DNA of 32,000 nucleotides from Trichodesmium erythraeum IMS101. GTDB taxonomy: Bacteria > Cyanobacteriota > Cyanobacteriia > Cyanobacteriales > Microcoleaceae. Positions 2,227 through 20,425 of the stretch are shown here, in pieces; the first letter of the stretch is position 1, and every line of letters starts with the position of its first letter. The notes beneath the pieces are model-generated. The model saw only the letters and a program-made list of their open reading frames with translations. It was not told the origin of the DNA and did not search any database. The stretch spans positions 1,410,001 to 1,442,000 of the forward strand of contig NC_008312.1 of assembly GCF_000014265.1 (NCBI RefSeq). Direction: 5' to 3'. Made by a program: the position numbers and the translations under genes.

Positions 2227-2706
2227 ATGGGGATATCTTTGAAAATTATGCTTAACACAATTGCAACTCAGATTAGAAAGTGGTTCTCAGCACCAGAGGT
2301 GAGTGCTCACTGTGATGGTCCTTGCGGTGTTTATGACCCTGCTTCTGCTCGCATTTACGCTGAAGCTGTATTATCTATGACTAAGAAAATTCTAGATCTT
2401 GACCCAAAAGCTGGAGATCATAAGACTGCTAATACCCTTTCTCGCTATATTGCAATTAAGGAAGAGCAAGCTCAGAAGACTAAGGAAGATTTGCTTATTC
2501 TCTGGACTGATTATTTTAAGCCTGTACATTTAGAAAAGTATCCAGACCTCCACGATACTTTTTGGAAGGCTGCTAAGTTATGCTCTGCTTGTAAGGTAGA
2601 AGTTAGTTTGGAGCATGCTACTGAGTTACTAGCTGCTGTGGAGAAAATTCACAATATGTTCTGGGCTACTAAGGAGCGGGATGTGACTTGGTACAAGGCT
2701 AGCTAA
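2227..2706 (+). CDS. sodN: nickel superoxide dismutase precursor
   Basis: Ni-hook motif HCDGPCGVYDP, with His at 2308-2310, preceded by a short pro-peptide. The true start may be the second ATG at 2248. Confidence 0.95.
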   Translation: MGISLKIMLNTIATQIRKWFSAPEVSAHCDGPCGVYDPASARIYAEAVLSMTKKILDLDPKAGDHKTANTLSRYIAIKEEQAQKTKEDLLILWTDYFKPVHLEKYPDLHDTFWKAAKLCSACKVEVSLEHATELLAAVEKIHNMFWATKERDVTWYKAS

Positions 2707-2712
2707 TTTTTT

Positions 2713-3084
2713 TTGTTTGAGGTGGTAGGTACAAGGTTGATACAAACAATTGATAATAAAGAATTATTGCTTTGGTTATTAAGGTTGCGCCAACGGTTTT
2801 GTGTCACAGGATTTTCTATGTTTCCTATACTTAAACCTGGAGATGAGGTTCTTGTAGATACAAAAGCCTACCACCACTGTGCTCCAGAAATAGGGGATAT
2901 GGTTGTGGCTGAACACCCTCATCGTCAAGAGTTAAAAATAATTAAGTGGGTTGCTTTTGTTGATGAAAAAGGTGACTGTTTTTTGGTCGGAGAAAATAAG
3001 GAAGAAAGTACCGATAGTCGTTCTTTTGGTTTGGTAAATCGAAAACGAATAATTGGTAAGGTAAAGAGCAAGTTTCCAACATAG
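2713..3084 (+). CDS. sodX: S26-type signal-peptidase-like NiSOD maturation protease
   Basis: Lies 7 nt downstream of sodN. S26 motifs GFSMFPILKPGDEVLVD and GEN...STDSRSFG are present. The TTG start is taken from the ORF track. Confidence 0.8.
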   Translation: MFEVVGTRLIQTIDNKELLLWLLRLRQRFCVTGFSMFPILKPGDEVLVDTKAYHHCAPEIGDMVVAEHPHRQELKIIKWVAFVDEKGDCFLVGENKEESTDSRSFGLVNRKRIIGKVKSKFPT

Positions 3085-3113
3085 TTTAACACATTAGGTT
3101 TGAAGGATATTGG

Positions 3114-4195
3114 TTGAATAAAAAATCATGTTTGCATTTAAATAACTCTTACTAATTTCAGTATATCAATTTTTTTTTAATTGGAGCTTCGCAAAATGAT
3201 AGTAGCTGCTATCTGTTGTCTTGCTATTTCAGGCACAAAGCGATCATCAGAGAACTAGTTATATAAGACTTATGATTTTTTTCTAGTTGAATAAAAAATC
3301 ATACAAAAGGGCGAGTTTGTACCACTAACTATAGTATATCAAATTTTTTTTGAGAATGGCTGGTGGAAATAATAATGCTTTTTAGAGCTCCGTAAAATGA
3401 TAGCGATCGCTATCTGTTGTCTTGCTATTTCAGGCACAAAGCGATCATCAGAGAACTAGTCATATAAGACTTATGATTTTTTTCTAGTTGAATAAAAAAT
3501 CATACAAAAGGGCGAGTTTGTACCACTAACTATAGTATATCAAATTTTTTTTGAGAATGGCTGGTGGAAATAATAATGCTTTTTTAGAGCTTTGTAAAAT
3601 GAGAGCGATCGCTATCTGTTGTCTTGCTATTTCAGGCTCAAAGCGTCGAGACTTATGATTTTTTCTAGTTGAATAAAAAATCATACAAAAGGGCGAGTTT
3701 GTACCACTAACTATAGTATATCAAATTTTTTTTGAGAATGGCTGGTGGAAATAATAATGCTTTTTTAGAGCTTTGTAAAATGAGAGCGATCGCTATCTGT
3801 TGTCTTGCTATTTCAGGCACAAAGCGATCATCAGAGAACTAGTCATATAAGACTTATGATTTTTTTTTAGTTGAATAAAAAATCATACAAAAGGGCGAGT
3901 TTGTACCACTAACTATAGTATATCAAATTTTTTTTGAGAATGGCTGGTGGAAATAATAATGCTTTTTTAGAGCTTTGTAAAATGAGAGCGATCGCTATCT
4001 GTTGTCTTGCTATTTCAGGCACAAAGCGATCATCAGAGAACTAGTTATATAAGACTTATGATTTTTTTCTAGTTGAATAAAAAATCATACAAAAGGGCGA
4101 GCTTGTACCACTGTACCACTAACTATAGTATATCAAATTTTTTTTGAGAATGGCTGGTGAAAATAATAATGTTTTTTTAGAGCTCCGTAAAATGC
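3114..4195. repeat. tandem array of units about 201 bp long (degenerate first unit, 4 full units, truncated last unit)
   Basis: The unit marker ttgaataaaaaatcat recurs at 3114, 3287, 3488, 3669, 3871 and 4073, giving periods of 173, 201, 181, 202 and 202. Each full unit has an AT hairpin (tatgatttttt..aaaaaatcata), a TATAGT box, and a 16-bp palindrome gatagcgatcgctatc containing HIP1. An isolated hairpin relic lies at 4336-4365. Confidence 0.95.
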
Positions 4196-4772
4196 CAACT
4201 AGTTGTTTAGTGGGGGGGGAGGAATGGCTTACATAGGAGATTGAGGCATTTTATTTAATGATCTAGGGGAGTCGTGCCTCACTTTTGGTAGATATTTGAG
4301 GAGCCTTAATTCATAATTGTAGCGATCGTAACTAGTGATTTTTTGATTGAATAAAAAATCATATTTAAATTGTTGGTATTGAGTAGAGCGATCGCTGTGC
4401 TGACTTTATGGTTAGTTTATAGTTAGTTTTTCTTGGCAAGTACCTTTGCTGAAAAATCAGGATGTAGGGACTTGGTATATAATCTTCCTCAAAGGTTTAT
4501 GTCAAAACCAAGTTAACTCCTCTGGGAGAAATTCCCACACTTCCTTAAAAAGGAAAGTGCTACGGGAAAGCCAGTAGTTAGTTTTGTGGTTCATTCTTGC
4601 TTTCGCTCTTTTTTTTGAGCATTGAGACAGTAAAAACACCACAGGACGCAATAAAGTAAGACTCAATAACTATTCCTTTGGGATTTATCAAAATGATTTT
4701 CATTATTTAAGTGAAGCATTTAAAAGATATAAAGAAGGAAGCAATATATCAATTTCCATCAATTAAGAACTA

Positions 4773-6365
4773 ATGACTATAGCTATAGATTTCGGAACAA
4801 GTAATACTGTTATTTCTCGTTGGAATCAAACAACTAAACAACCAGAAATTGTCAAGTTACCAAATATCTCAATTCTTTCTGTGGAAAATCCGCCTTTAAT
4901 TCCTAGCTTAGTCTATGTGGAAAATGTTGCTGAAAAAAAAGTAGTAGTAGGTCAACAGGTTAGAGATAAAGGTTACGATGTTAATACGGAATCTAGATTT
5001 TTTCGTAATTTCAAACGGGGTATTGGTGCAAATGTTCAAGGATTTTTGCCGGAACTTGACGGTCAAATTGTTTCTTTTGAACAGGTAGGGAAATTGTTTT
5101 TAGAAGAAGTTGTAGCAGGTCTTCAGAAAGTGCCTTTGCCAGTAGAGTCTTTAATTTTTACTGTTCCAGTAGATAGTTTTGAAGCTTATCGAAATTGGTT
5201 GGGGGAAGTTTGTCAGTCTCTAGAGGTTGAACAGGTAAGAATGATTGATGAACCTACTGCTGCGGCTTTAGGTTATGGGATGGCAGATGCGGAAATTTTG
5301 TTGGTGGTTGATTTTGGTGGGGGAACTTTAGATTTATCTTTGGTAAGGTTGGATAATGTGATGGCAAAACAACCTTTGGGTTATATTCTGAAATGGGGTA
5401 AAAAATCTTATGGTAACAATTCAAGTCAAAAGGCAAGAACTGCAAGGGTTTTGGCAAAGGCTGGAGAGAATTTAGGGGGTTCGGATATTGATAATTGGTT
5501 GGTGGATTATTTTGTTAAGAGTCAAGGGATAGAAAAGAGCTCTTTAGTTACTCGTTTGGCAGAAAAGTTAAAAATTCAATTGTCTTTGCAGCAAGAGGGA
5601 ACGGAGGTTTTTTTTGATGATGAAAGTTTGGAAAGTTATGAGCTGGGGTTGGGGCGGGATGCTTTTGAGGAAATTCTCCGGGAAAATGGTTTTTTTGCTA
5701 GTCTTGATCAGTCAATGAGTCGGGTTTTACAGCAGGCAAAAAGACAAGGAATAGAGTTATCGGATATTGGTGCTGTTTTATTGGTGGGAGGAACGGTGCA
5801 AATTCCGGCGGTTCAGAGGTGGGTAAGGGAATATTTTGATGCTGGAAAAATTCGTTGTGAAAAACCTTTTGAGGCAATTTCTCAGGGAGCGTTGCAATTA
5901 GTTCAAGGAGTGGAGGTTAAGGATTTTTTGTATCACGGTTATGGTATCCGGTATTGGGATAGAAAGAAAAATGCTCATGGTTGGCATCCGTTGATTAAGT
6001 CTGGTCAACCGTATCCAATGAGTAGTCCTGTAGAGCTGGTTTTGGGTGCTTCTATGAATAGTCAACCTAGTATAGAGTTGGTTTTGGGAGAGTTGGGTGC
6101 TGAGTCTGCTGGTACAGAGGTTTTTTTTGATGGCGATCGCCTTATTACTCGGAAAGTTTCTGGGGAGCAAACTGCTGTACAACTTTTAAATGATAGAGAG
6201 GGAGGTCGTAGTATTGCTCAATTAAGTCCTTTGGGAAATCCGGGGAGGGATCGCATTAAGGTTTTGTTTTGGGTGGATGAGTCTAGGTTTTTGAGAATAA
6301 CGGTGGAGGATTTATTGACGAATGAAATTTTGTTAAATGAGCAGGCTGTTGTACAGTTGAGTTAG
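4773..6365 (+). CDS. Hsp70/DnaK-family ATPase-like protein (short form without a helical lid)
   Basis: Hsp70 NBD motifs IAIDFGTSNT, DEPTAAALGYG, VVDFGGGTLDLSLV and LLVGGTVQIPAVQ. At 530 aa it ends after a beta-rich domain. Confidence 0.85.
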   Translation: MTIAIDFGTSNTVISRWNQTTKQPEIVKLPNISILSVENPPLIPSLVYVENVAEKKVVVGQQVRDKGYDVNTESRFFRNFKRGIGANVQGFLPELDGQIVSFEQVGKLFLEEVVAGLQKVPLPVESLIFTVPVDSFEAYRNWLGEVCQSLEVEQVRMIDEPTAAALGYGMADAEILLVVDFGGGTLDLSLVRLDNVMAKQPLGYILKWGKKSYGNNSSQKARTARVLAKAGENLGGSDIDNWLVDYFVKSQGIEKSSLVTRLAEKLKIQLSLQQEGTEVFFDDESLESYELGLGRDAFEEILRENGFFASLDQSMSRVLQQAKRQGIELSDIGAVLLVGGTVQIPAVQRWVREYFDAGKIRCEKPFEAISQGALQLVQGVEVKDFLYHGYGIRYWDRKKNAHGWHPLIKSGQPYPMSSPVELVLGASMNSQPSIELVLGELGAESAGTEVFFDGDRLITRKVSGEQTAVQLLNDREGGRSIAQLSPLGNPGRDRIKVLFWVDESRFLRITVEDLLTNEILLNEQAVVQLS

Positions 6366-9000: not shown

Positions 9001-9309
9001 TTATGGCTTTTTATTGATTTTCTTACTTACCTTTTGAAGCTCACTTGATATTTTCTTAGTCATTGTTTTAAAATCAGCTTTGTTGAAGTTATTCTTAACT
9101 TTATTCCACTCATTATTAATTGTTTTCAAGTCAGCTTTGTTGAAGTTACCCTTAGCTTTATTCCACTCATTATTAATTGCTTTAAAATCAACTTTCTTGA
9201 GCTCATTCTGAACTTTATGCAGCTCATTATCAATTTTTTTAAAATCAACTTTCTTGAGCTCATCTTTAACTTTATTTAGCCCCTTCTCAATTTCGTTATA
9301 TTTAGTCAT
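9001..9309 (-). CDS. hypothetical Lys/Asn-rich protein built from 19-aa (57-nt) tandem repeats
   Basis: GGAG lies 7 nt before the ATG. The repeat I(D/N)NE(L/W).K.....K(V/A)D(F/L)K occurs 4 times; the DNA period of 57 nt is seen at 9101 and 9158. Confidence 0.6.
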   Translation of the reverse strand: MTKYNEIEKGLNKVKDELKKVDFKKIDNELHKVQNELKKVDFKAINNEWNKAKGNFNKADLKTINNEWNKVKNNFNKADFKTMTKKISSELQKVSKKINKKP

Positions 9310-9415: not shown

Positions 9416-9658
9416 TCAATGTGTACCATTAATCCATATTTCATGTTCACTTATATCAATTTCATCATTCCAAATAATTCCACTCCCTGATGGATCTATT
9501 TGAAAATTTTTGCAGAAAGCAAAGTTTTTTGGAGGAAAGAACGTTGGTTTGTTTAGTAATTTTTGAATATTATACTTTCTTGTTTTATGATTGGAGAAAT
9601 GTACTAACAAGGTGTAGTTATCTATTACTTGAGCTGATTTGATTTTGGGATAAAGCAT
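9416..9658 (-). CDS. DUF2442-family protein
   Basis: 80 aa. The pattern ...V.DNYTLLVHFSN...Y......L......F....F..F.IDPSG.GI.W..EIDIS matches my recollection of DUF2442. It is translationally coupled to the DUF4160 relic upstream. Confidence 0.7.
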   Translation of the reverse strand: MLYPKIKSAQVIDNYTLLVHFSNHKTRKYNIQKLLNKPTFFPPKNFAFCKNFQIDPSGSGIIWNDEIDISEHEIWINGTH

Positions 9659-9661
9659 AAT

Positions 9662-9921
9662 TTTTATTCGATAATTTATTTTTATGGTGGTAATTTTCTA
9701 AATTCTTGGGTATTCTTTGCAATAATTCTGTTTGATATATTGATGCCTATTCAATTACTATTTTTGTTGCTCTATTTGCTAAATCACCTTCAATAATTTC
9801 CCAGGTTTCTAGATTAAATAGAGGGTTATATTTTCCATAAATTGCATGAAAATGAGGAGGAGGATGATCTGCAAAAAATAATAATTTTGATAATTCCATA
9901 AAATCTGGAAACTTCAGGCAT
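9662..9921 (-). pseudogene. DUF4160-family gene inactivated by a frameshift and a premature stop
   Basis: ATG 9921 gives MPEVSRFYGIIKIIIF. The reading must then shift frame inside a T-run to continue ADHPPPHFHAIYGKY...ATKIVIE (the ORF 9747-9899). TAG at 9747-9749 sits where the family has Trp (..LEWA..), and homology (ASIYQTELLQ) continues after it. Confidence 0.7.
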
Positions 9922-9956
9922 TGGTTTGATTCTCAAAAGCAAATTCCCAAAAATAA

Positions 9957-10268
9957 TTATATTATTACTTGCTCATAAATTACCATTGCTTCCTGTAATA
10001 CCCGCAAAAGGCGAAAATAACGACTTAGATCTTTTGGAGTCCTCAAATCTACTACTCTTCCTAATAAATAATTTAATTCATCTTCTATTCTAATAATTGC
10101 TAAACCAGGAGTTTTTCCTGGCTCAAATTCTACTAAGATATCTATATCACTTTCAGTCGTAAAGTCATGCCGCAGCACTGAACCAAATAAGGATAATTTG
10201 CTAATATTATACTGCTGACAAATTTGATTAATTTCAGCTTTTTGTAAATCAATAGGTAAAGTTTTCAT
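9957..10268 (-). CDS. minimal nucleotidyltransferase (MNT-type antitoxin-like), no HEPN partner present
   Basis: Motif LSLFGSVLRHDFTTESDIDILVEF (GS...D.D polymerase-beta-fold NTase). Confidence 0.85.
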   Translation of the reverse strand: MKTLPIDLQKAEINQICQQYNISKLSLFGSVLRHDFTTESDIDILVEFEPGKTPGLAIIRIEDELNYLLGRVVDLRTPKDLSRYFRLLRVLQEAMVIYEQVII

Positions 10269-12257: not shown

Positions 12258-13010
12258 ATGCCAAGAAAACCTCGGAATTTTCAAATTGGACACTCTTATC
12301 ACATTACGACTCGTTGTAATAACCGTGAATTTAAACTATCCAGGCGCGAATGTCGGGAAGTATTTCTTTATGCAATAAAAAAGGTTAGCACCAAATACAA
12401 TTTTCGGCTTTATGCTTTGTGCATTATGTCCAATCATGTTCATTATTTGATTGAACCGTTGCAACCAGAAGATTTACCAAAAATTATGCACTACCTCAAC
12501 TGGTACACAGCTATGTGTTTCAACAGAATGTTAAAACGTACGGGGCATTTTTGGGAAAAACGATATTACTGCAATGGGTTTCCTTCCTCAGATAGAGAAA
12601 GAGCATTGAATACTTTACGCTACATCCACGGTAATCCTAAAGCGGCCAAAATGCGTTGCGGCTTTTTCTATGATTTTAGTAACTATGGTAGCTACGAATG
12701 TTTGACTAATGATGGCCTGACTCAATGGCATCCGGCTTTCTTAGAGTTGGCCAATACTCTGGACCAATGTGCCCAGAAATATAAGGAATTTTGTAAGAAA
12801 TATAAGTCCAAACAAAAAGATTCGAGAAAGTGCCACTGGGGCAGCAAACTTTTAGGGGGTATTGTGCTGTCTTTTGATGGCCGAAATTCTCGCTCTGCTA
12901 AGAAGAAAAAGTTATCAACTCCTTTTGACTTTCCGCCGACGGTGATGCCAGACAATGAAGAATTAGCAAAGGTAGTTAGTCAATTTGTTGTAGCTAATAG
13001 ACCGAATTAG
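12258..13010 (+). CDS. IS200/IS605-like Y1 (HUH) transposase, RAYT-like
   Basis: HUH motif SNHVHYLIEP, catalytic Tyr region LRYIHGNPKAAKM, and N-terminal YHITTRCNNREF. Confidence 0.85.
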   Translation: MPRKPRNFQIGHSYHITTRCNNREFKLSRRECREVFLYAIKKVSTKYNFRLYALCIMSNHVHYLIEPLQPEDLPKIMHYLNWYTAMCFNRMLKRTGHFWEKRYYCNGFPSSDRERALNTLRYIHGNPKAAKMRCGFFYDFSNYGSYECLTNDGLTQWHPAFLELANTLDQCAQKYKEFCKKYKSKQKDSRKCHWGSKLLGGIVLSFDGRNSRSAKKKKLSTPFDFPPTVMPDNEELAKVVSQFVVANRPN

Positions 13011-14442: not shown

Positions 14443-17400
14443 CTATGCCAACTGACGATTTACCAACCGCCTAAACAACCCCTCCTGTGCCATCAACTCA
14501 TCAAACCTTCCCTTCTGCACAACCCGCCCCTGAGACATCACATAAATAACATCCGCGTTCCTAATAGTACTCAAACGATGAGCAATAACAACCCTGGTCA
14601 CATTCAACCGCTCCAAACTCTCAGTAACGATCGCCTGAGTTTTATTATCCAAAGCACTAGTCGCCTCATCCAACAAAATAATTTTCGGCTGCAATATCAA
14701 CGCCCGAGCAATTAACAACCGTTGTCGTTGCCCCACGGAAATATTACCACCTCCCTCACTCACTATTGTATGCATCCCCATAGGCATTTTCTCTATATCA
14801 TCAGCAAAACCCACCTTCTGAGCGGCCTCCCATGCTACCTGTGGACTTACCAACTCACCACTACTAATATTTTGATAAATACTACCCGTGATCACCTGAC
14901 CATTTTGCAGCACCACCCCTAATTGTTGTCTAACTGCCTCCAAGTCTAATTCAGCCAAATTTTTACCATCATAAAAAATACTTCCGGTTTGTGGTTGCTC
15001 AAACCCCAACAACAAACGAAACAAAGTAGACTTGCCACTGCCAGAGGGGCCCACAATAGCAACAAATTCTCCTGGTTTAACTTCCAAACTAATATTATGG
15101 AGTACAGTCACCCCATTAAATTGTGGGAGATTTTCTTCAGTTTTGCCAACTATTAATTTAGACTTTTGATGATAACTAAAAGTCAGATTATCAATAGAAA
15201 TATGACCTTGTAATTTTCCGGGGTGAGCCAAATTAGGATTATATTCAATAGGAGAATCTAAAATACTTTTAGCTCTTTCCCACAAAGGCACAATACCAAT
15301 AACATCAGTAATAGTATCACTCAAAGAAGTTACTCCACCAAGAAACACACCCATGGCAGAATTAAAAGCAATAAATGTACCAATATTTAAACCAGGAGTT
15401 CCGGTCTGAGCCGCAGAAATAATAATCTGAATAGCAAACCAATAAATCACAATAGAAGTCACCAGAGAAACCACTTCATTAATGACAGAAATAATATCGT
15501 TTATCTGAAAAATCCGATTATTAAGTTGAATTTGAGGTTGAAACTTTTTACCCCAAACTGCAAAAGCTCTAACTTCTGCAGCCGCAACTCGTAATTTTTG
15601 AATCCCATTGATGAGCTCTACAGTTAAACCTTGAATTTTCCCGCTCAACTTTTCTTGTTCCCGTTCAAAACGAATTAAAATTATTCCAGAAATCAAAGTA
15701 ATGAGGAAAGAAATTACACCAACAATTAAAACTATTAAAGCTAATTTTTTGCTATAGACAAACATTAAACCCAAATTTAACAGAGAAAATAACCCAGTAA
15801 AAATAGTCGTAATTACAGCACTATTAACCAAACCACTAATCTGACTTATCGCAGCAATACGAGTTAATAAATCTCCCAAACTAAATTCCCGGAAAAAAGT
15901 TGGGTTGAGCCGAAAAAGACGGTCATAAATTCCAGATTGTAAATTAATTTGCATTCCCTGAGAAACCTTAATAGACATTATGCCTTGGAGCAAACTAAAC
16001 AAAGATTTTCCTACAGTAACAGCAAGTAAACCCAGTGCTATTTGCCATAATAATAATTTGTCACTATCAGGAATAGCATTATTAATAAGAATGGCACTTG
16101 CCTGAGGAGTAACCATACCCATCAGACTGATTATTGTGCCTAAAATCATTACTTTTATTGCATCCCATTCATAACCTTTGATGGCAAATAAAAATATATC
16201 CCAAACCTTTTTAACTTGGATGGGAAAAGGGCGATAAAAAGTAAATGCTGTTGATGATAAAGTAGCAGCTACATTTTGATTTATAGGAATAGAAGTTTGA
16301 GTCTTTGGGTTGTAGAGAAAATATTGATTATTCTTAGGTAATAAAGCCACGGGTAAATTTTCTAATTTCAGCCAACCCAACAAAGCACCAGAATTTTTTT
16401 GCCACCATTTATCTCTGAGTTTTACTTCCCGAATTCGACAACGTGAAGCTCTAGCAATTTCTTGTAAATATATTTGATAATCAGCAGGAGATTGTTTTTC
16501 TGGGATAGTATTTTGGAAATTTTTTCTTTGTGTAAGTGGTGGTTTAATTTCTATCTGACTAGCACGACCTATTGCTCCTACTGCGGCTAATAATAAGTCA
16601 TTAAAATCAGAGACCAAAGAGTTAGTTGTTTTTCGATTATATAAAACAGAAACAAAATTTTGCATAGTTTCTGCTTGACTGCGTTGATTATAGGTTTTGA
16701 GTCGTTGAGAATTGAAAATTTCTGTTTGTTCCTCAGCCAAAATAACTTGGTGGAGATAATTGCAAAAATTATTATTAATTGAAACAATTTCCGAAAAATT
16801 AGGAAGCTCAGATTTTCCAAAAGATGGCAAAGAAAAATCTTTTGGTATTGAGTCAACAGATTCATCTATCAATTCCAAATTTTGAATTTTGGCTTTTGAA
16901 TTTTGACTTTCCCAAAGGTAGTTTAACCATTTTTCTACTAGAGAACCAGACAAACTCTGGAAATCTTCATTTAAATCTGTATTAGCAAGATTAATCTGAA
17001 TTAATTCAGCTTTTTCCAAAGCAATTCCCAATAATTTGCCTTGAGTCTGAGCATCGGAATTAAAAATTAACTCTCCCTGTTTAACCGTAAATAAATAATG
17101 ACGATTTCCGATTAATTCTCCATCTAATTCCAGAGAATAAAATATTTCCACAGCTCCAGATTTTACGAACCAGATAATTTGGGGGAATTCAAAAATTAGA
17201 GGTTGATTACCCTCCAAAAAATAATATTTTGTTTTACTGTCTAAATTAGCCAATAACCGAGTAGAAACCAGAGACTTTTCAACAATATTTTCCCCTTTTA
17301 TTTCTCTATTTATTCCCAACTCTTGATACCTTAGTTCAGGCAAAATATCCTGCCTAAAATCTTGACTCCCTTCTTCCATCTCCAATAATTGACGATAATA

Positions 17401-19596
17401 AACACCCTGATGCCAAAGTTGTTGATGAGTACCTCTTTCTAATACCTTTCCTTCTCTTAAAACAATAATTTCATCACAATCTCGAATTGTACTTAAACGG
17501 TGGGCAACCACAATACAAGCACAACCCCGACGACGTAAATTCTGATCAATAACTCTTTCAGTTTCCGCATCCAAACTACTCGTTGCTTCATCTAAAATTA
17601 AAATCCGAGGATTATTTACTAAAGCTCTAGCAATTTCCAAACGTTGTCTTTGACCACCCGATAAATTCACCCCACCTTCCAACAAATTAGCATCATAACC
17701 ACCAGATAAACTGATAATAAATTCGTGAATATTTGCATCCTTACAAGCCTGAGTCAAAGCCGAATTACTAATAGTTGGATTCCATAAAGTTAAATTTTCT
17801 CGAATTGTACCTTCAAATAAAGATATATCTTGTGCCACCATAGCCACCGACTTTGTTAAAACAGAACGAGGAATTTCTTGACGGGGAATATCATCAAATA
17901 AAACTTCTCCTAATAATGGTTGATATAAACCGCAAACTAAATTAGCAATAGTAGATTTTCCAGAACCACTTTTTCCCACCAAAGCAACTCTTGAACCAGG
18001 ATTAATCAACAAATTAAAATTGACAATTAATGGAGGCTTTAAAGGATTATAACCAAAAGTAATATCTCTAAGTTCAACTTTACCTTTTAATGGAGAATAT
18101 GGAATTAATAACCCGTTCGGAGCATTTTTTTTATCATAAAATGTCAGTTGTTCCAAATTATTTCCGGCTTCAACAACAGAATTTTCTACATCATTTTCTA
18201 CTGCTTCAGTAATTTCAATATCTTCATCAAGAGGATTATCCAAAACATCATCAAGACGTTCCAAACTTGCCTCCAACTCTTGTAAACTACTGGCAAAATT
18301 GATTAATTTGCCCAGAGGATTCAAAAAACCAGAAGCTACAGTTTGAAATGCCACTAACATCCCAATACTCATGTCTCCTGCCATAACCGTTAAACCTCCC
18401 AAAACCAAAATTATTGCAGAAGAAAGAGTACTTAAAAATGTTGGTAAAAGAGTTAAAATTTGAGTTTGAATATTTAATTTTTGTTCCTCATTCATCACCT
18501 GAGAATATATCCCCAAAATCCGGGAAAACATATAAGATTCTAAACCCCCCGCCTTGAGACTTTCAATTGCTCCTAAACTACCCAAAAGATAACCAGACAA
18601 TTTACCTTTTTTTTCGCTCAAATTCAAAGTTGCCTCAATCCGAAATTGTCGAAGCCAATATAATGCTGCCACATTAATCAAACCAAAAACTATAGTAATT
18701 CCAGCTAAAACTCCATTATAAAAACTCATTAAAACAGCATAAAATACCAACATTATCGTATCAATAAAAGTATTTGCAACCTGACTCAATAATTGTACAG
18801 TTGTGTCATTTAAAGCAGCCCGAGAACTAATATCTCCAGTAAATCTTTGGGCATAAAAATTCATAGGTAATCGTAACAGATGCCACATAAACTTACTATT
18901 CATAGTAATTGAAAGTTTAATAATTAACTTCCGCAAGAAAATATATTGCATCCTAGCAATAGTAAATTGTAGAATCGTAGTTACCGCCATTCCTACAAGT
19001 AAAGGACGGAGCCAACCTTGCAAACCCTCCACTAAAACTTGGTCAACAAAAACCAAACTAAAAGCCGGAATAATTAAACGAATTAAACTGAGAAAAAAAC
19101 CAGTAATAAAAGTAAAAACCAGAGCATTTTTCGAGTTTTGTAAACGAACTGCTAAATAAGCAATAAAATTTCTTTTTTTTCCTCCTTTAACAAACTCTTC
19201 CCCCGGTTCCATCTGCAAAACAATACCACTGTAAGATTGAGCAAATTCTTCCTTACTAACCTTGCGCCTACCCAATGCCGGATCATTCAGATAAGCAAAC
19301 TTTTTATCAAAACCTTCCACTACCAAAAAATGATTAAATTTCCAAAAAATAATCACAGGTAAATCAATTTCTTCTAAAAATTCAACGTTACTTTTTCCAC
19401 CCTTAGCTGTCAAACCATATTCCCTTGCCGTTCTGACAATTTGTCCGGCATTAGTACCATCTCGACTCACACCGCATTTACTGCGCAACTCCATTAAAGG
19501 AACTTGACGCCCATAATATTTCAGAATAATACCCAAGGATGCGGCGCCACATTCAGTAGCTTCTCTTTGTAAAAAAGGTTTTGTTTTTACTCTCAT
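14443..19596 (-). CDS. fused double ABC exporter: C39 peptidase-TMD-NBD, then cNMP-binding-like domain-C39-like domain-TMD-NBD (1,717 aa)
   Basis: C39 Cys (QREATECGAASLG) and His (NHFLVVEG). Two Walker A motifs (GKSGSGKST, GPSGSGKST), two signature motifs (LSGGQRQR, ISVGQRQR), and two Walker B motifs. The ATG at 19596 has AAGGA upstream and is preferred over the track's TTG at 19674. Confidence 0.95.
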   Translation of the reverse strand: MRVKTKPFLQREATECGAASLGIILKYYGRQVPLMELRSKCGVSRDGTNAGQIVRTAREYGLTAKGGKSNVEFLEEIDLPVIIFWKFNHFLVVEGFDKKFAYLNDPALGRRKVSKEEFAQSYSGIVLQMEPGEEFVKGGKKRNFIAYLAVRLQNSKNALVFTFITGFFLSLIRLIIPAFSLVFVDQVLVEGLQGWLRPLLVGMAVTTILQFTIARMQYIFLRKLIIKLSITMNSKFMWHLLRLPMNFYAQRFTGDISSRAALNDTTVQLLSQVANTFIDTIMLVFYAVLMSFYNGVLAGITIVFGLINVAALYWLRQFRIEATLNLSEKKGKLSGYLLGSLGAIESLKAGGLESYMFSRILGIYSQVMNEEQKLNIQTQILTLLPTFLSTLSSAIILVLGGLTVMAGDMSIGMLVAFQTVASGFLNPLGKLINFASSLQELEASLERLDDVLDNPLDEDIEITEAVENDVENSVVEAGNNLEQLTFYDKKNAPNGLLIPYSPLKGKVELRDITFGYNPLKPPLIVNFNLLINPGSRVALVGKSGSGKSTIANLVCGLYQPLLGEVLFDDIPRQEIPRSVLTKSVAMVAQDISLFEGTIRENLTLWNPTISNSALTQACKDANIHEFIISLSGGYDANLLEGGVNLSGGQRQRLEIARALVNNPRILILDEATSSLDAETERVIDQNLRRRGCACIVVAHRLSTIRDCDEIIVLREGKVLERGTHQQLWHQGVYYRQLLEMEEGSQDFRQDILPELRYQELGINREIKGENIVEKSLVSTRLLANLDSKTKYYFLEGNQPLIFEFPQIIWFVKSGAVEIFYSLELDGELIGNRHYLFTVKQGELIFNSDAQTQGKLLGIALEKAELIQINLANTDLNEDFQSLSGSLVEKWLNYLWESQNSKAKIQNLELIDESVDSIPKDFSLPSFGKSELPNFSEIVSINNNFCNYLHQVILAEEQTEIFNSQRLKTYNQRSQAETMQNFVSVLYNRKTTNSLVSDFNDLLLAAVGAIGRASQIEIKPPLTQRKNFQNTIPEKQSPADYQIYLQEIARASRCRIREVKLRDKWWQKNSGALLGWLKLENLPVALLPKNNQYFLYNPKTQTSIPINQNVAATLSSTAFTFYRPFPIQVKKVWDIFLFAIKGYEWDAIKVMILGTIISLMGMVTPQASAILINNAIPDSDKLLLWQIALGLLAVTVGKSLFSLLQGIMSIKVSQGMQINLQSGIYDRLFRLNPTFFREFSLGDLLTRIAAISQISGLVNSAVITTIFTGLFSLLNLGLMFVYSKKLALIVLIVGVISFLITLISGIILIRFEREQEKLSGKIQGLTVELINGIQKLRVAAAEVRAFAVWGKKFQPQIQLNNRIFQINDIISVINEVVSLVTSIVIYWFAIQIIISAAQTGTPGLNIGTFIAFNSAMGVFLGGVTSLSDTITDVIGIVPLWERAKSILDSPIEYNPNLAHPGKLQGHISIDNLTFSYHQKSKLIVGKTEENLPQFNGVTVLHNISLEVKPGEFVAIVGPSGSGKSTLFRLLLGFEQPQTGSIFYDGKNLAELDLEAVRQQLGVVLQNGQVITGSIYQNISSGELVSPQVAWEAAQKVGFADDIEKMPMGMHTIVSEGGGNISVGQRQRLLIARALILQPKIILLDEATSALDNKTQAIVTESLERLNVTRVVIAHRLSTIRNADVIYVMSQGRVVQKGRFDELMAQEGLFRRLVNRQLA

Positions 19597-19717
19597 TTTT
19601 TTTTCCTTAATTTTTTTTATTTGTGATAGAGATATAGCTAATAAAATATCAGCCTTCCCTTTCAACTTCAGCAAAATATATTGTCAAAATACGACTATGA
19701 TATAAAAGTACGCTTAT

Positions 19718-20425
19718 GATGTATAATTTTAATTTTAAGACAGATAAACAAAAGAAGAATTTTACACTATAATTAAATAACTAACATGTCTAGTTTTATG
19801 TCAATATCCTCTGATAAAATTTAATTAAATTATATATAAACTAACTAACTATTAAAATTATAAAATTATATTTTGCTTGTGAGATATTTGTATGAAATTT
19901 TCTCATATTCCTTTTTTTTCAAAAATTTAGCAGTAAAAAAAAGTAAAAACACTTGATGTATAATTTTAATTTTAAGACAGATAAACAAAAGAAGAATTTT
20001 ACACTATAATTAAATAACTAACATGTCTAGTTTTATGTCAATATCCTCTGATAAAATTTAATTAAATTATATATAAACTAACTAACTATTAAAATTATAA
20101 AATTAAAATTAATTAAAATAAAATTGTGAGATATTTGTATGAAATTTTCTCATATTCCTTTTTTTTTCAAAAATTTAGCAGTAAAAAAAAGTAAAAACAC
20201 TTGATGTATAATTTTAATTTTAAGTACAGATAAACAAAAGAAGAATTTTACACTATAATTAAATAACTAACATGTCTAGTTTTATGTCAATATCGTCTGA
20301 TAAAATTTAATTAAATTATATATAAACTAAATTATATTAAATTAAATATTTTGCTTGTGAAATATTTGTATAGAATTTTCTCATATTCCTTTTTTTTTCA
20401 AAAATTTAGCAGTAAAAACACTTAA
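19718..20425. repeat. tandem array of 3 units about 240 bp long, between the divergent exporter and cbiD genes
   Basis: The marker gatgtataattttaattttaag recurs at 19718, 19955 and 20203 (periods 237 and 248). Each unit has a perfect TATAAT (for example 19768-19773), and a weak hairpin plus a T8-9 run (for example 19912-19919) on the plus strand. Confidence 0.9.

What the first reader, a model, noticed from the sequence alone, without database searches (positions are those of the whole stretch)
3114..4365. Six-unit tandem array of about 201 bp, each unit with promoter-like and terminator-like elements and a conserved 20-codon mini-ORF
Between sodX and the Hsp70-like gene, units start at 3114 (degenerate), 3287, 3488, 3669, 3871 and 4073 (truncated at about 4195). 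Each full unit carries:
- a TATAGT box (for example 3330-3335)
- a 16-bp perfect palindrome gatagcgatcgctatc (for example 3399-3414) followed by tgttgtcttgctattt, which is terminator-like on the plus strand
- an all-AT hairpin at the unit junction (for example 3271-3303)

A mini-ORF recurs five times, at 3196-3258, 3397-3459, 3599-3658, 3780-3842 and 3982-4044. It encodes M(I/R)(A/V)(I/A)AICCLAISG(T/S)KR..., a hydrophobic stretch followed by a charged tail.

In the first unit the palindrome is mutated (gtagctgc), yet the peptide stays hydrophobic (IVAAI versus IAIAI). A T5/T6 length difference switches an upstream in-frame extension on or off (MAGGNNNAFLELCK...).

This layout is reminiscent of tandem sRNA gene arrays such as NsiR1 in Nostocales, and of tandem type I toxin-antitoxin loci such as ibs/sib or ldr. 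Both comparisons are hypotheses. Other variation includes a 20-bp deletion in unit 3 and a gtaccact duplication at about 4097-4112.
Basis: partly seen in the sequence, partly recalled or inferred. Interest (0 to 1): 0.7.

Follow-up and report, generated by a model that had tools for sequence, protein, structure and literature searches.

The report
Tandem copies of a dispersed promoter module
The six ~200-bp repeats after the nickel-superoxide-dismutase genes of Trichodesmium erythraeum are amplified copies of a promoter-carrying intergenic element found at many sites in Trichodesmium and its relatives; its best-conserved promoter reads the strand opposite to the proposed mini-gene, and that mini-gene is not conserved.

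Summary
The array is real. There are six units at 3114-4195 plus a relic junction at 4326-4371, with a period of 201/202 bp and about 95% identity. The organism is Trichodesmium erythraeum, and the array lies between sodN/sodX (Tery_0971 region) and an Hsp70-like gene. The left ~135 bp of each unit belongs to a family I found at 10 or more unrelated intergenic sites in Trichodesmium and Dapis/Okeania-like relatives, often in tandem with other periods (260-410 bp). It is absent from Rfam and from 2.9 million viral contigs.

The invariant positions of the family spell an extended -10 sigma-70 promoter on the MINUS strand: TTGC(A/T)T, exactly 17 bp, then TGnTAnnnT. A 40-41-nt unstructured AU-rich leader follows and ends in the invariant CATGATTTTTTATTCAA.

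The palindrome is the cyanobacterial HIP1 motif. The AT hairpin is not a family feature.

The Shine-Dalgarno-like box and ATG of the mini-ORF are conserved. The ORF body is not: lengths run from 2 to 89 aa, frames are broken, and it reads MIFYWFD* in sister species. It has no homologue among 1.84 billion representative proteins.

Most likely each unit fires a short non-coding minus-strand transcript, and unit 0 reads antisense into sodX. Transcription itself is untested.

The parts
3114..4195 (.). Tandem array: unit 0 (3114-3286, degenerate, 29-bp gap), units 1-4 (3287-3487, 3488-3668 with 20-bp deletion, 3669-3870, 3871-4072), unit 5 (4073-~4195, truncated, 8-bp duplication)
   Evidence: TRF; repeats; alignments; 16-mer positions
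4326..4371 (.). Relic unit junction (T-run + TTGAATAAAAAATCAT at 4347-4362); sequence to its right (from ~4371) is conserved in the array-less sister lineage L011
3114..3130 (-). Family-invariant 17-mer TTGAATAAAAAATCATG (minus strand: CATGATTTTTTATTCAA), unit 0; the same box starts at 3287, 3488, 3669, 3871 and 4073 (there ...TCATA)
   Evidence: invariant columns
3153..3188 (-). P1 promoter of unit 0: TG 3168-3167, -10 TATACT 3165-3160, predicted TSS ~3153; -35 lost (AGCTCC). Transcript would run antisense into sodX (stop at 3084)
   Evidence: deleted in strain variants L051/L053/L055
3326..3361 (-). P1 promoter unit 1: -35 AGCCAT (3361-3356), 17 bp, TGA + TATACT (3338-3333), predicted TSS ~3326
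3527..3562 (-). P1 promoter unit 2 (-10 3539-3534, predicted TSS ~3527)
3708..3743 (-). P1 promoter unit 3 (-10 3720-3715, -35 3743-3738, predicted TSS ~3708)
3910..3945 (-). P1 promoter unit 4 (-10 3922-3917, predicted TSS ~3910)
4120..4155 (-). P1 promoter unit 5 (-10 4132-4127, predicted TSS ~4120)
3369..3396 (-). P2, T. erythraeum-specific second promoter-like site, unit 1: TTTACG-16-TATTAT (9/12)
3570..3598 (-). P2 unit 2: TTTACA-17-TATTAT (10/12); same at 3751-3779 and 3953-3981; 4163-4191 is TTTACG (9/12). Predicted TSS ~3563, 3744, 3946, 4156
3301..3322 (-). Leader hairpin (GUACAAA / CUCGCCCU loop / UUUGUAU, -5.8 kcal/mol) followed by U6 (plus-strand A-run 3293-3298); repeats at +201/+382/+584; a T. 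erythraeum feature, not conserved in the family
3382..3459 (+). Conserved block (family GGAGCTTCACAAAATGA; here AGAGCTCCGTAAAATGA) plus mini-ORF 3397-3459 (MIAIAICCLAISGTKRSSEN); other copies 3196-3258, 3599-3658, 3780-3842, 3982-4044; variant 4192-4236
3399..3414 (.). HIP1-centred palindrome GATAGCGATCGCTATC (perfect here; GAGAGC... at 3601-3616, 3782-3797, 3984-3999)
3271..3303 (.). All-AT inverted repeat across the unit junction (also 3472-3504, 3855-3887, 4057-4089)
   Evidence: not a family feature
2227..3084 (+). Flanking sodN (2227-2706, Sod_Ni) and sodX (2818-3084, Peptidase_S26)
   Evidence: Tery_0971 = NiSOD in PMC4642986
4773..6365 (+). Flanking Hsp70-like gene

Best explanation
The array is a lineage-specific tandem amplification of one copy of a dispersed intergenic element. 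I call it the TTGAAT-box module. It is about 135 bp long and is shared by Trichodesmium species and benthic relatives.

**Core of the module.** The conserved core is a sigma-70 promoter on the window's minus strand: -35 TTGC(A/T)T, a 17-bp spacer, and an extended -10 TGnTAnnnT. A fixed-length (40-41 nt), unstructured, AU-rich initial transcribed region follows and ends in CAUGAUUUUUUAUUCAA.

**State in T. erythraeum.**
- The -35 has decayed to AGCCAT, but the TG-extended -10 is intact.
- A second minus-strand promoter-like site (TTTACA-17-TATTAT) has arisen 36 bp upstream of the first.
- The leader has acquired a 7-bp hairpin followed by U6.

**Predicted output (inferred).**
- Each unit should produce a short non-coding minus-strand RNA. 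It would be about 35-40 nt if the hairpin/U6 terminates transcription, or about 110 nt up to the HIP1 hairpin plus AUUUUA if it reads through.
- Unit 0's transcript should run antisense into the 3' end of sodX.

**Shown versus inferred.**
- Shown: family membership, the conservation pattern, the absence of conserved RNA structure, and the non-conservation of the ORF.
- Inferred: promoter activity, transcript ends, and any regulatory effect on sodNX.
For: **Family and synteny.**
- The array is present at the same site after sodX in sister lineages. L017 has a 313-bp period x2.9 plus two degenerate units. L015 and L046 have a single unit, and L038 has three module copies.
- Only the left ~65 nt and the GAGCTTCACAAAATGA block align to the window units.
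- The metagenome scan returned 29 loci, about 16 of them true relatives, in unrelated intergenic regions.
- One copy lies upstream of prxQ in the Dapis sp. BLCC M229 isolate genome.
- A profile HMM gives E-values of 1e-16 to 1e-29 for these copies.

**Promoter on the minus strand.**
- In 34 distinct copies, TGA before the -10 is invariant.
- The -10 reads TATACT in 14 copies, TATAAT in 8 and TATAGT in 5.
- At exactly 17 bp upstream sit TTGCAT (8), TTGCTT (8) and CTGCAT (3). The spacer sequence varies freely.
- In 6 of 10 independent loci the promoter faces the start of a co-oriented gene 22-673 nt away (within 200 nt in five). In five of these the upstream gene is co-directional too.
- The consensus scan puts 11 of 12 promoter-like sites in the region on the minus strand.

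**Variation within the array.** Among the four full units there are 0 differences in the 92 columns holding the leader, promoter and upstream stretch, against 7 mutational events in the other 110 columns (Fisher p = 0.017).

**No conserved RNA fold.**
- RNAalifold finds no pairs on the plus strand and only a 3-pair stem (-0.24 kcal/mol) on the minus strand.
- A hand-drawn helix does no better than shuffles.
- Unit transcripts fold with z = -1.05 and -0.53.
- This pattern fits conservation of primary sequence and DNA signals.
Against: - No transcript data were available to me. The supplement of the T. erythraeum dRNA-seq paper is not held, and its main text does not mention this locus.
- The -35 is degenerate in all window units.
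- The -10 is symmetric (TAGTATA), so plus-strand initiation is not excluded.
- The plus-strand GGAG-N9-ATG block is nearly as conserved as the promoter. The minus-strand model explains it only as upstream DNA, and its distance from the -35 varies.
- The invariant 17-mer has no demonstrated role.
- Orientation relative to neighbouring genes is not significantly biased (6 of 10).
- Some natural T. erythraeum-type strains lack unit 0's -10 box. One sister lineage keeps only a decayed relic. The locus is therefore dispensable.
Confidence: 0.55

Rival explanations
1. Each unit is a plus-strand gene with a TATAGT/TAGTAT -10, an RNA carrying a translated 20-aa mini-protein (or acting as an sRNA), and termination at the weak hairpin plus T7 at the unit junction.
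For: - The Shine-Dalgarno-like GGAG sits 9 nt upstream of a nearly invariant ATG across the family.
- The peptides all begin with M, then K/I/R, then a hydrophobic run.
- TAGTAT fits TAnnnT, and A-11/T-7 of a plus-strand -10 are also invariant.
- Many copies, including the window units, have a T-run just before the next TTGAAT box.
- In L038 two 39-aa ORF copies keep their frame.
Against: - ORF length ranges from 2 to 89 aa. The ORF reads MIFYWFD* in L015 and L017, the ATG is lost in L017 unit 1, and 1-nt indels separate L017 units.
- In the window units the Shine-Dalgarno box is weakened to AGAG.
- The same block recurs inside longer ORFs and 2-3 times per unit. That points to a nucleotide motif rather than a start site.
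- There is no homologue in 1.84 billion proteins, Pfam or NCBIfam.
- The longest uninterrupted hydrophobic run is only 9-11 residues.
- The consensus scan finds no plus-strand -35/-10 pair inside the units.
- The invariant ATCA after the -10 is unexplained on the plus strand.
Confidence: 0.2
2. The array is a tandem type I toxin-antitoxin locus. A plus-strand hydrophobic toxin peptide would be controlled by the divergently transcribed minus-strand sRNA.
For: - A small hydrophobic ORF and an oppositely oriented strong promoter sit in one compact, tandemly repeated unit.
- The symmetric -10 would allow back-to-back transcription.
Against: - The predicted transcripts start about 18 bp apart and point away from each other, so they do not overlap.
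- By inspection, the best pairing between the minus leader and the plus start region is a 6-bp AU duplex.
- The toxin ORF is not conserved and is truncated to 2-8 codons in many copies.
- Its hydrophobic run is too short for a membrane helix.
- No Pfam or NCBIfam family matches.
Confidence: 0.05
3. The array is neutral or selfish repeated DNA. It would be a locally amplified remnant of a dispersed repeat with no function for the host, in a genome known for abundant non-coding DNA and repeats.
For: - There are two further tandem arrays in the same 32 kb.
- The spacer is a hot spot with IS insertions in sister lineages.
- The array is absent or decayed in L011-L013.
- Unit 0's promoter is deleted in some strains.
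- There is no conserved fold and no conserved ORF.
- Only about 60% of the T. erythraeum genome is coding (PMC6596454).
Against: - Boxes stay invariant across 30 or more copies at 10 or more loci and in several genera while the intervening bases vary freely. That indicates selection on each copy, or on propagation.
- There are no terminal inverted repeats, and no inverted copy of the 17-mer lies nearby.
- No transposase is associated, and the module is not in viral contigs.
- Several copies sit where a gene promoter is expected.
Confidence: 0.2

Closest known systems
NsiR1 tandem sRNA array upstream of hetF in Nostocales (Ionescu et al. 2010, as summarised in PMC6596454)
   Same: [quoted passage not shown]
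- The repeats have clade-restricted conservation.
   Different: - There is no sequence or Rfam match.
- There is no DIF (TCCGGA) or NtcA box.
- There is no conserved hairpin RNA.
- The organism forms no heterocysts.
- The family here is dispersed over many loci and is not tied to one gene.
The >6-kb, 7-unit tandem array giving the most abundant ncRNAs of T. erythraeum IMS101 (Pfreundt et al. 2014, PMC4143802)
   Same: - It is in the same organism.
- It is a tandem intergenic repeat, and there each repeat has been shown to have its own transcription start.
   Different: - Those units are 736-973 bp long, lie at genome position 103-110 kb and give ~260-nt RNAs.
- The present array has ~200-bp units near Tery_0971 and is not among the transcripts listed in that paper's main text.
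Promoter-bearing dispersed intergenic repeats such as Neisseria Correia elements (from my own knowledge, not tested here)
   Same: They are short non-coding elements scattered in intergenic regions that bring functional promoters next to unrelated genes.
   Different: - Correia elements have terminal inverted repeats and target-site duplications.
- No inverted repeats were found here, and tandem amplification is typical here.
Bidirectional promoters with a symmetric -10 (TAnnnTA), described as widespread in bacteria (my own knowledge, not tested here)
   Same: The box TAGTATA contains a -10 on both strands, offset by one base.
   Different: Here the TG extension and the -35 are conserved on one strand only.
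Tandem type I toxin-antitoxin loci (ibs/sib, ldr/rdl)
   Same: The units are tandem, ~200-bp scale and each holds a small hydrophobic ORF and an opposite-strand promoter.
   Different: - There is no conserved toxin ORF.
- There is no overlap or extended complementarity between the transcripts.
- No family match was found.

Membership tests
TTGAAT-box module family (defined here) | 17-mer TTGAATAAA(A/G)A(A/G)TCAT(G/A) at one end | tested here: met
   Present in all six units and in the relic.
TTGAAT-box module family (defined here) | TGnTAnnnT on the opposite strand, with the predicted start (7 nt after the -10) 40-41 nt from the outer end of the 17-mer | tested here: met
   TGATATACT is present in all six units. 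The leader is 40 nt, or 48 nt in unit 5 because of the 8-bp duplication.
TTGAAT-box module family (defined here) | -35 TTGC(A/T)T exactly 17 bp upstream of the -10 | tested here: not met
   Window units have AGCCAT, and unit 0 has AGCTCC. The spacing is kept but the hexamer is degenerate. Profile-HMM membership is still clear (E = 1e-16).
TTGAAT-box module family (defined here) | Block G(G/A)AGCTTCAnA(A/G)AATG beyond the promoter | tested here: met
   It reads GGAGCTTCGCAAAATG in unit 0 and AGAGCT(T/C)(T/C)GTAAAATG in units 1-5.
NsiR1 (Nostocales tandem sRNA) | Match to the curated RNA family, or the sequence/structure of the ~60-nt sRNA | tested here: not met
   Rfam 15 gave no hit at gathering score, and none at E <= 10 apart from spurious snoRNA models.
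NsiR1 (Nostocales tandem sRNA) | HetR/NtcA-dependent promoter with a DIF motif (TCCGGA) | tested here: not met
   No TCCGGA and no GTA-N8-TAC in 3086-4400 on either strand.
NsiR1 (Nostocales tandem sRNA) | Location upstream of hetF in a heterocyst-forming cyanobacterium | tested here: not met
   The flanks are sodN/sodX and an Hsp70-like gene. The organism is Trichodesmium erythraeum.
Type I toxin-antitoxin (Ibs/Sib, Ldr/Rdl type) | Conserved small hydrophobic toxin ORF | tested here: not met
   The ORF is not conserved in homologous units. There is no homologue and no family match. The hydrophobic run is 9-11 aa.
Type I toxin-antitoxin (Ibs/Sib, Ldr/Rdl type) | Antisense or complementary sRNA overlapping or pairing with the toxin mRNA | tested here: inconclusive
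   A minus-strand transcript from the next unit's promoter would be antisense to the mini-ORF if it read through. Transcript ends are unknown, and I found no extended trans-complementarity by inspection.
Type I toxin-antitoxin (Ibs/Sib, Ldr/Rdl type) | Toxicity of the peptide on overexpression | not testable with these tools
   This needs an experiment.
HIP1 (highly iterated palindrome of cyanobacteria) | GCGATCGC strongly over-represented genome-wide | tested here: met
18 copies in the window against 0.01 expected.
MITE / Correia-like mobile repeat | Terminal inverted repeats flanking the element | tested here: not met
   No inverted copy of the 17-mer occurs in any locus. All copies within a locus share one orientation.

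The most novel reading that the evidence does not exclude
The TTGAAT-box module is a selectively maintained, clade-specific promoter and 5'-leader cassette. It has been copied to many intergenic sites in the Trichodesmium/Dapis/Okeania clade and is repeatedly amplified in tandem. It would wire unrelated genes (prxQ, thrB, a U32 peptidase and others) and antisense transcripts (sodX, dnaJ 3' ends) to one shared control input, acting through the invariant 17-mer and the GGAGCTTCACAAAATG box. The sodX-proximal array would then be a dosage-amplified antisense regulator of nickel-SOD maturation.
Probability: 0.2. Interest if true: 0.7.

Novelty: new variant of a known kind. Interest (0 to 1): 0.45.

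Why it matters
About 40% of the Trichodesmium genome is non-coding, and the organism has an unusually high share of non-coding transcription starts (PMC6596454). What that DNA does is an open question, and there is no genetic system to address it.

A repeat family with an identifiable, strongly conserved promoter, a fixed-length leader and two invariant boxes gives a concrete sequence-defined class to look for in the existing dRNA-seq data. It may account for some of those orphan starts. It also suggests antisense transcription into the Ni-SOD maturation gene.

For the specific finding, the practical message is negative. The mini-ORF/toxin idea should be dropped, and any probe design should target the minus strand first.

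Tried and rejected
- **Rfam.** Searches of the window and 13 related loci found nothing.
- **Genome-collection scan.** A scan with the mini-ORF 20-mer returned only a chance hit in a Saprospiraceae MAG. That part of the unit is therefore not found in other species representatives. The window's own genome was not returned either and may be masked.
- **Exact look-ups.** Look-ups of the 34-aa and 36-aa long-ORF products and of the 123-aa sodX reading found nothing on record.
- **RNA structure.**
  - RNAalifold on the family found essentially no pairs on either strand.
  - A hand-proposed hairpin between the promoter and the T-run was 55.6% paired, no better than shuffles.
  - Single-unit folds were not significant.
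  - The idea that the minus leader ends in a conserved intrinsic terminator was rejected for the family. Only T. erythraeum and a few copies have a decent stem.
- **Minus-strand ORF.** The ORF starting at the ATG inside the 17-mer (MIFYS...) is 6-93 aa with nothing conserved beyond 7 residues, so I rejected it as a gene.
- **Coding test.** The 39-aa L038-type ORF has frame-breaking 1-nt indels in L017 units.
- **Sequence-motif ideas.** I considered a Fur-box, a CRP-like half-site, an NtcA site and an IHF site in the conserved boxes by inspection. The matches were too weak to claim.
- **Phage origin.** There were no viral-contig matches.
- **Direct TSS evidence.** I tried RNA-derived public contigs via sodX, prxQ and Hsp70 look-ups. 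Only long DNA contigs, or contigs ending at uninformative positions, came back.
- **Literature.** The dRNA-seq paper's supplement is not held. No paper mentions Tery_0972 or Tery_0973.
- **Copy number.** It could not be compared across strains. Other assemblies have N gaps or may be collapsed.
Full report
**Observation.** The sequence between 3114 and 4195 is a genuine tandem array.
- Tandem Repeats Finder reports periods of 201/202 bp with 95% matches.
- The 16-mer TTGAATAAAAAATCAT marks every unit start (3114, 3287, 3488, 3669, 3871, 4073) and a relic junction at 4347. Chance expectation is 0.33.
- The alignment of the units confirms the degenerate unit 0 (29-bp gap), the 20-bp deletion in the 3488 unit, the 8-bp GTACCACT duplication and the truncation of the last unit near 4195.
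- Two corrections apply. The 16-bp palindrome is perfect only in the 3287 unit. Its core is GCGATCGC, the cyanobacterial HIP1 motif, present 18 times in the window against 0.01 expected.

**Organism and setting.**
- The Hsp70-like protein encoded at 4773-6365 is identical to one on contig JAGGDU010000208.1 of GCA_018457135.1. PMC9366434 names that assembly Trichodesmium erythraeum.
- The upstream genes are sodN (Sod_Ni) and sodX (Peptidase_S26).
- NiSOD is Tery_0971 in PMC4642986.
- Other T. erythraeum-type assemblies have scaffolding gaps or possibly collapsed repeats in this spacer, so copy number cannot be compared.

**Comparative evidence at the same locus.** I fetched the sodX to hsp70 spacer from sister lineages through Hsp70 orthologues of 86-90% identity.
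- L011-L013 have no array. They keep only a decayed relic plus the conserved right flank.
- L015 and L046 have one ~300-bp unit.
- L017 has its own array with a 313-bp period, 2.9 copies at 92% identity, plus two degenerate units.
- L038 has three copies.
- Only the left ~65 nt of the T. erythraeum unit and the block GAGCTTCACAAAATGA align to these units.
- From the conserved ATG these lineages read ATGATTTTCTACTGGTTTGATTGA, which is MIFYWFD*. L017 unit 1 has ATA instead of ATG.

**A dispersed family.**
- A metagenome scan with TTGAATAAAAAATCAT-N25-45-TATATCA returned 29 loci. About 16 are clear relatives and the rest are chance matches.
- The relatives lie in unrelated intergenic regions next to TPR/sulfotransferase, prxQ, thrB-like GHMP kinase, U32 peptidase, dnaJ, prephenate dehydratase and glycosyltransferase genes.
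- Many are in tandem, with periods of 260-410 bp.
- One locus carries a PrxQ 98% identical to that of Dapis sp. BLCC M229. The isolate genome itself has one module upstream of prxQ. The family therefore reaches beyond Trichodesmium.
- A profile of the module recovers all copies at E = 1e-16 to 1e-29 and finds none elsewhere in the window.
- There are no Rfam matches for the window or for 13 loci, and no match in viral contigs.

**What is conserved.** In the alignment of 31 copies (A2) the invariant columns are the 17-mer, the bases A....TATCA, and AAT(G).
- Read on the minus strand, TATCA plus the upstream A is TGATAnnnT. Those are positions -15 T, -14 G, -12 T, -11 A and -7 T of an extended -10 promoter, and positions -10 to -8 vary.
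- The -10 hexamers are TATACT (14 copies), TATAAT (8) and TATAGT (5). Exactly 17 bp upstream sit TTGCAT (8), TTGCTT (8) and CTGCAT (3), while the spacer sequence varies.
- From the predicted start to the end of the 17-mer is 40-41 nt in almost every copy.
- On the plus strand the first -10 base varies (T/A/G), and the invariant ATCA would have no role.
- I therefore assign the conserved promoter to the minus strand.
- The window units keep TGATATACT, but their -35 is AGCCAT.
- The window units have in addition a species-specific TTTACA-17-TATTAT site 36 bp upstream, scoring 10 of 12. This contributes to the 11 of 12 promoter-like sites on the minus strand in the consensus scan.

**No conserved RNA fold.**
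- RNAalifold predicts no pairs on the plus strand and only a 3-pair stem (-0.24 kcal/mol) on the minus strand.
- A helix I drew by eye is 55.6% paired, equal to shuffles.
- Single-unit transcripts fold no better than shuffled sequence (z = -1.05 and -0.53).
- The T. erythraeum leader does form a 7-bp hairpin followed by U6 (-5.8 kcal/mol). This is not a family trait.
- Conservation therefore acts on primary sequence. That fits DNA signals (promoter, protein-binding boxes) or unstructured RNA.

**The plus-strand block.**
- GGAGCTTCACAAAATG looks like a Shine-Dalgarno box 9 nt before an ATG, and it is almost as conserved as the promoter.
- ORFs from that ATG are 2-89 aa. They share at most 6-8 hydrophobic codons and are interrupted by stops and 1-nt indels.
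- The block recurs two or three times per unit, even inside longer ORFs.
- The 34-aa form has no hit in 1.84 billion representative proteins. None of six peptides matches Pfam or NCBIfam.
- The longest uninterrupted hydrophobic run of the T. erythraeum peptide is 9-11 residues.
- I conclude that a conserved protein or toxin is unlikely. What this block does is unexplained.

**Variation inside the array.** The four full units are identical over the first 92 aligned columns (17-mer, leader, promoter and the ~17 bp upstream of the -35). They differ by 7 mutational events in the remaining 110 columns (Fisher p = 0.017). Either constraint on the promoter half or homogenisation could produce this.

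**Context.**
- In 6 of 10 independent loci the minus-strand promoter faces the start of a co-oriented gene 22-673 nt away. The distance is 22-200 nt in five of them.
- In five of the six the upstream gene is co-directional as well. In those places the module sits where a terminator-promoter spacer would be.
- At the sodX locus, and at three others, the promoter instead faces the 3' end of a gene.
- The bias is not statistically significant.
- At the sodX site the orientation is the same in all five lineages that carry the module. The 17-mer lies 30-66 nt from the sodX stop codon.

**Mechanism proposed.**
- Shown:
  - family membership;
  - the promoter-like conservation pattern;
  - the lack of conserved fold and ORF.
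- Inferred:
  - each unit initiates transcription on the minus strand at about 3153, 3326, 3527, 3708, 3910 and 4120, and possibly at 3362, 3563, 3744, 3946 and 4156;
  - some transcripts end at the hairpin/U6 (~35-40 nt) and some read on toward the HIP1 hairpin followed by AUUUUA (~110 nt);
  - unit 0's transcript continues into sodX as an antisense RNA.
- The tandem state is a recent, lineage-specific amplification. The ancestral state was a single unit, as in L015 and L046.

**Rivals.**
- A plus-strand sRNA or mini-protein gene remains possible (0.2), because of the conserved GGAG-N9-ATG and the symmetric -10.
- A type I toxin-antitoxin reading is unlikely (0.05).
- Functionless repeat DNA cannot be dismissed for this particular array (0.2). 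Supporting points are the loss in L011, the 23-bp deletion of unit 0's -10 in natural strains, and two other arrays in the same window. The family-wide invariance of the boxes argues that the module itself is under selection.

**Limits.**
- I had no transcript data. The T. erythraeum dRNA-seq paper's main text does not cover this locus, and its supplement is not held.
- I could not scan the T. erythraeum genome for other copies of the module. My single genome-collection scan used the mini-ORF 20-mer and found only a chance match.

Noticed in passing
window 19717-20418 and 9062-9276: Two further tandem arrays in the same 32 kb: 237 bp x 2.9 copies (91% matches) and 57 bp x 3.8 copies. The module profile HMM found no match in them.
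   Followed up: partly
window, 18 sites (e.g. 1720, 4388, 6133, 12153, 31922): HIP1 (GCGATCGC) occurs 18 times against 0.01 expected. Unit 0 differs from the other units exactly at this motif (GTAGCTGC against GCGATCGC), so a HIP1 site was gained or lost within the array.
   Followed up: partly
window 4489-4501 and 4642-4644: TATAAT lies at 4489-4494, upstream of the Hsp70-like gene. One public Logan contig (L008) begins at window 4501, and two others (L007, L009) begin about 130 nt before the ATG. These may be RNA-derived 5' ends.
   Followed up: no
L015 5080-5790; L017 4484-5200; L011 5345-5785: The sodX to hsp70 spacer is a hot spot for insertions. L015 has an IS-like element with disrupted reading frames. 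L017 has an IS605 OrfB fragment. L011 has a different ~440-bp filling with repeated aggacttac/gtaagtcct motifs.
   Followed up: no
L051/L053/L055 3330-3345 (window equivalent 3148-3170): Environmental T. erythraeum-type contigs lack 23 bp of unit 0, including its -10 box. Their unit 0 peptide reads MIVIAICCLAISG(T/S)KRSSEN.
   Followed up: partly
L017 3260-3290, L024 190-290, L031 11440-11810, L049 20-1410: The block GGAG(T)GCTTCACA(A/G)AATGA recurs two or three times inside single units, sometimes without the promoter half. In several loci a ~70-nt conserved stretch follows it (ATGAAAATGTTGGTGGTTTTCCACTGAGGAGGGATGGATGGAAAGATTTGA...), with a GUGG/CCAC to GUGA/UCAC change. It may be a separate sub-element.
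   Followed up: partly
window 4213-4220: There is a G8 run just after the truncated last unit. Its length varies among strain contigs: 8 in L051 and 9 in L054.
   Followed up: no
window 9416-10268, 12258-13010, 14443-19674: The neighbourhood holds small toxin-antitoxin-like pairs (DUF2442/DUF4160; nucleotidyltransferase/PIN), a Y1 (IS200/IS605) transposase and a 1743-aa C39-peptidase/double ABC protein. The Pfam labels come from the identical contig L001.
   Followed up: no
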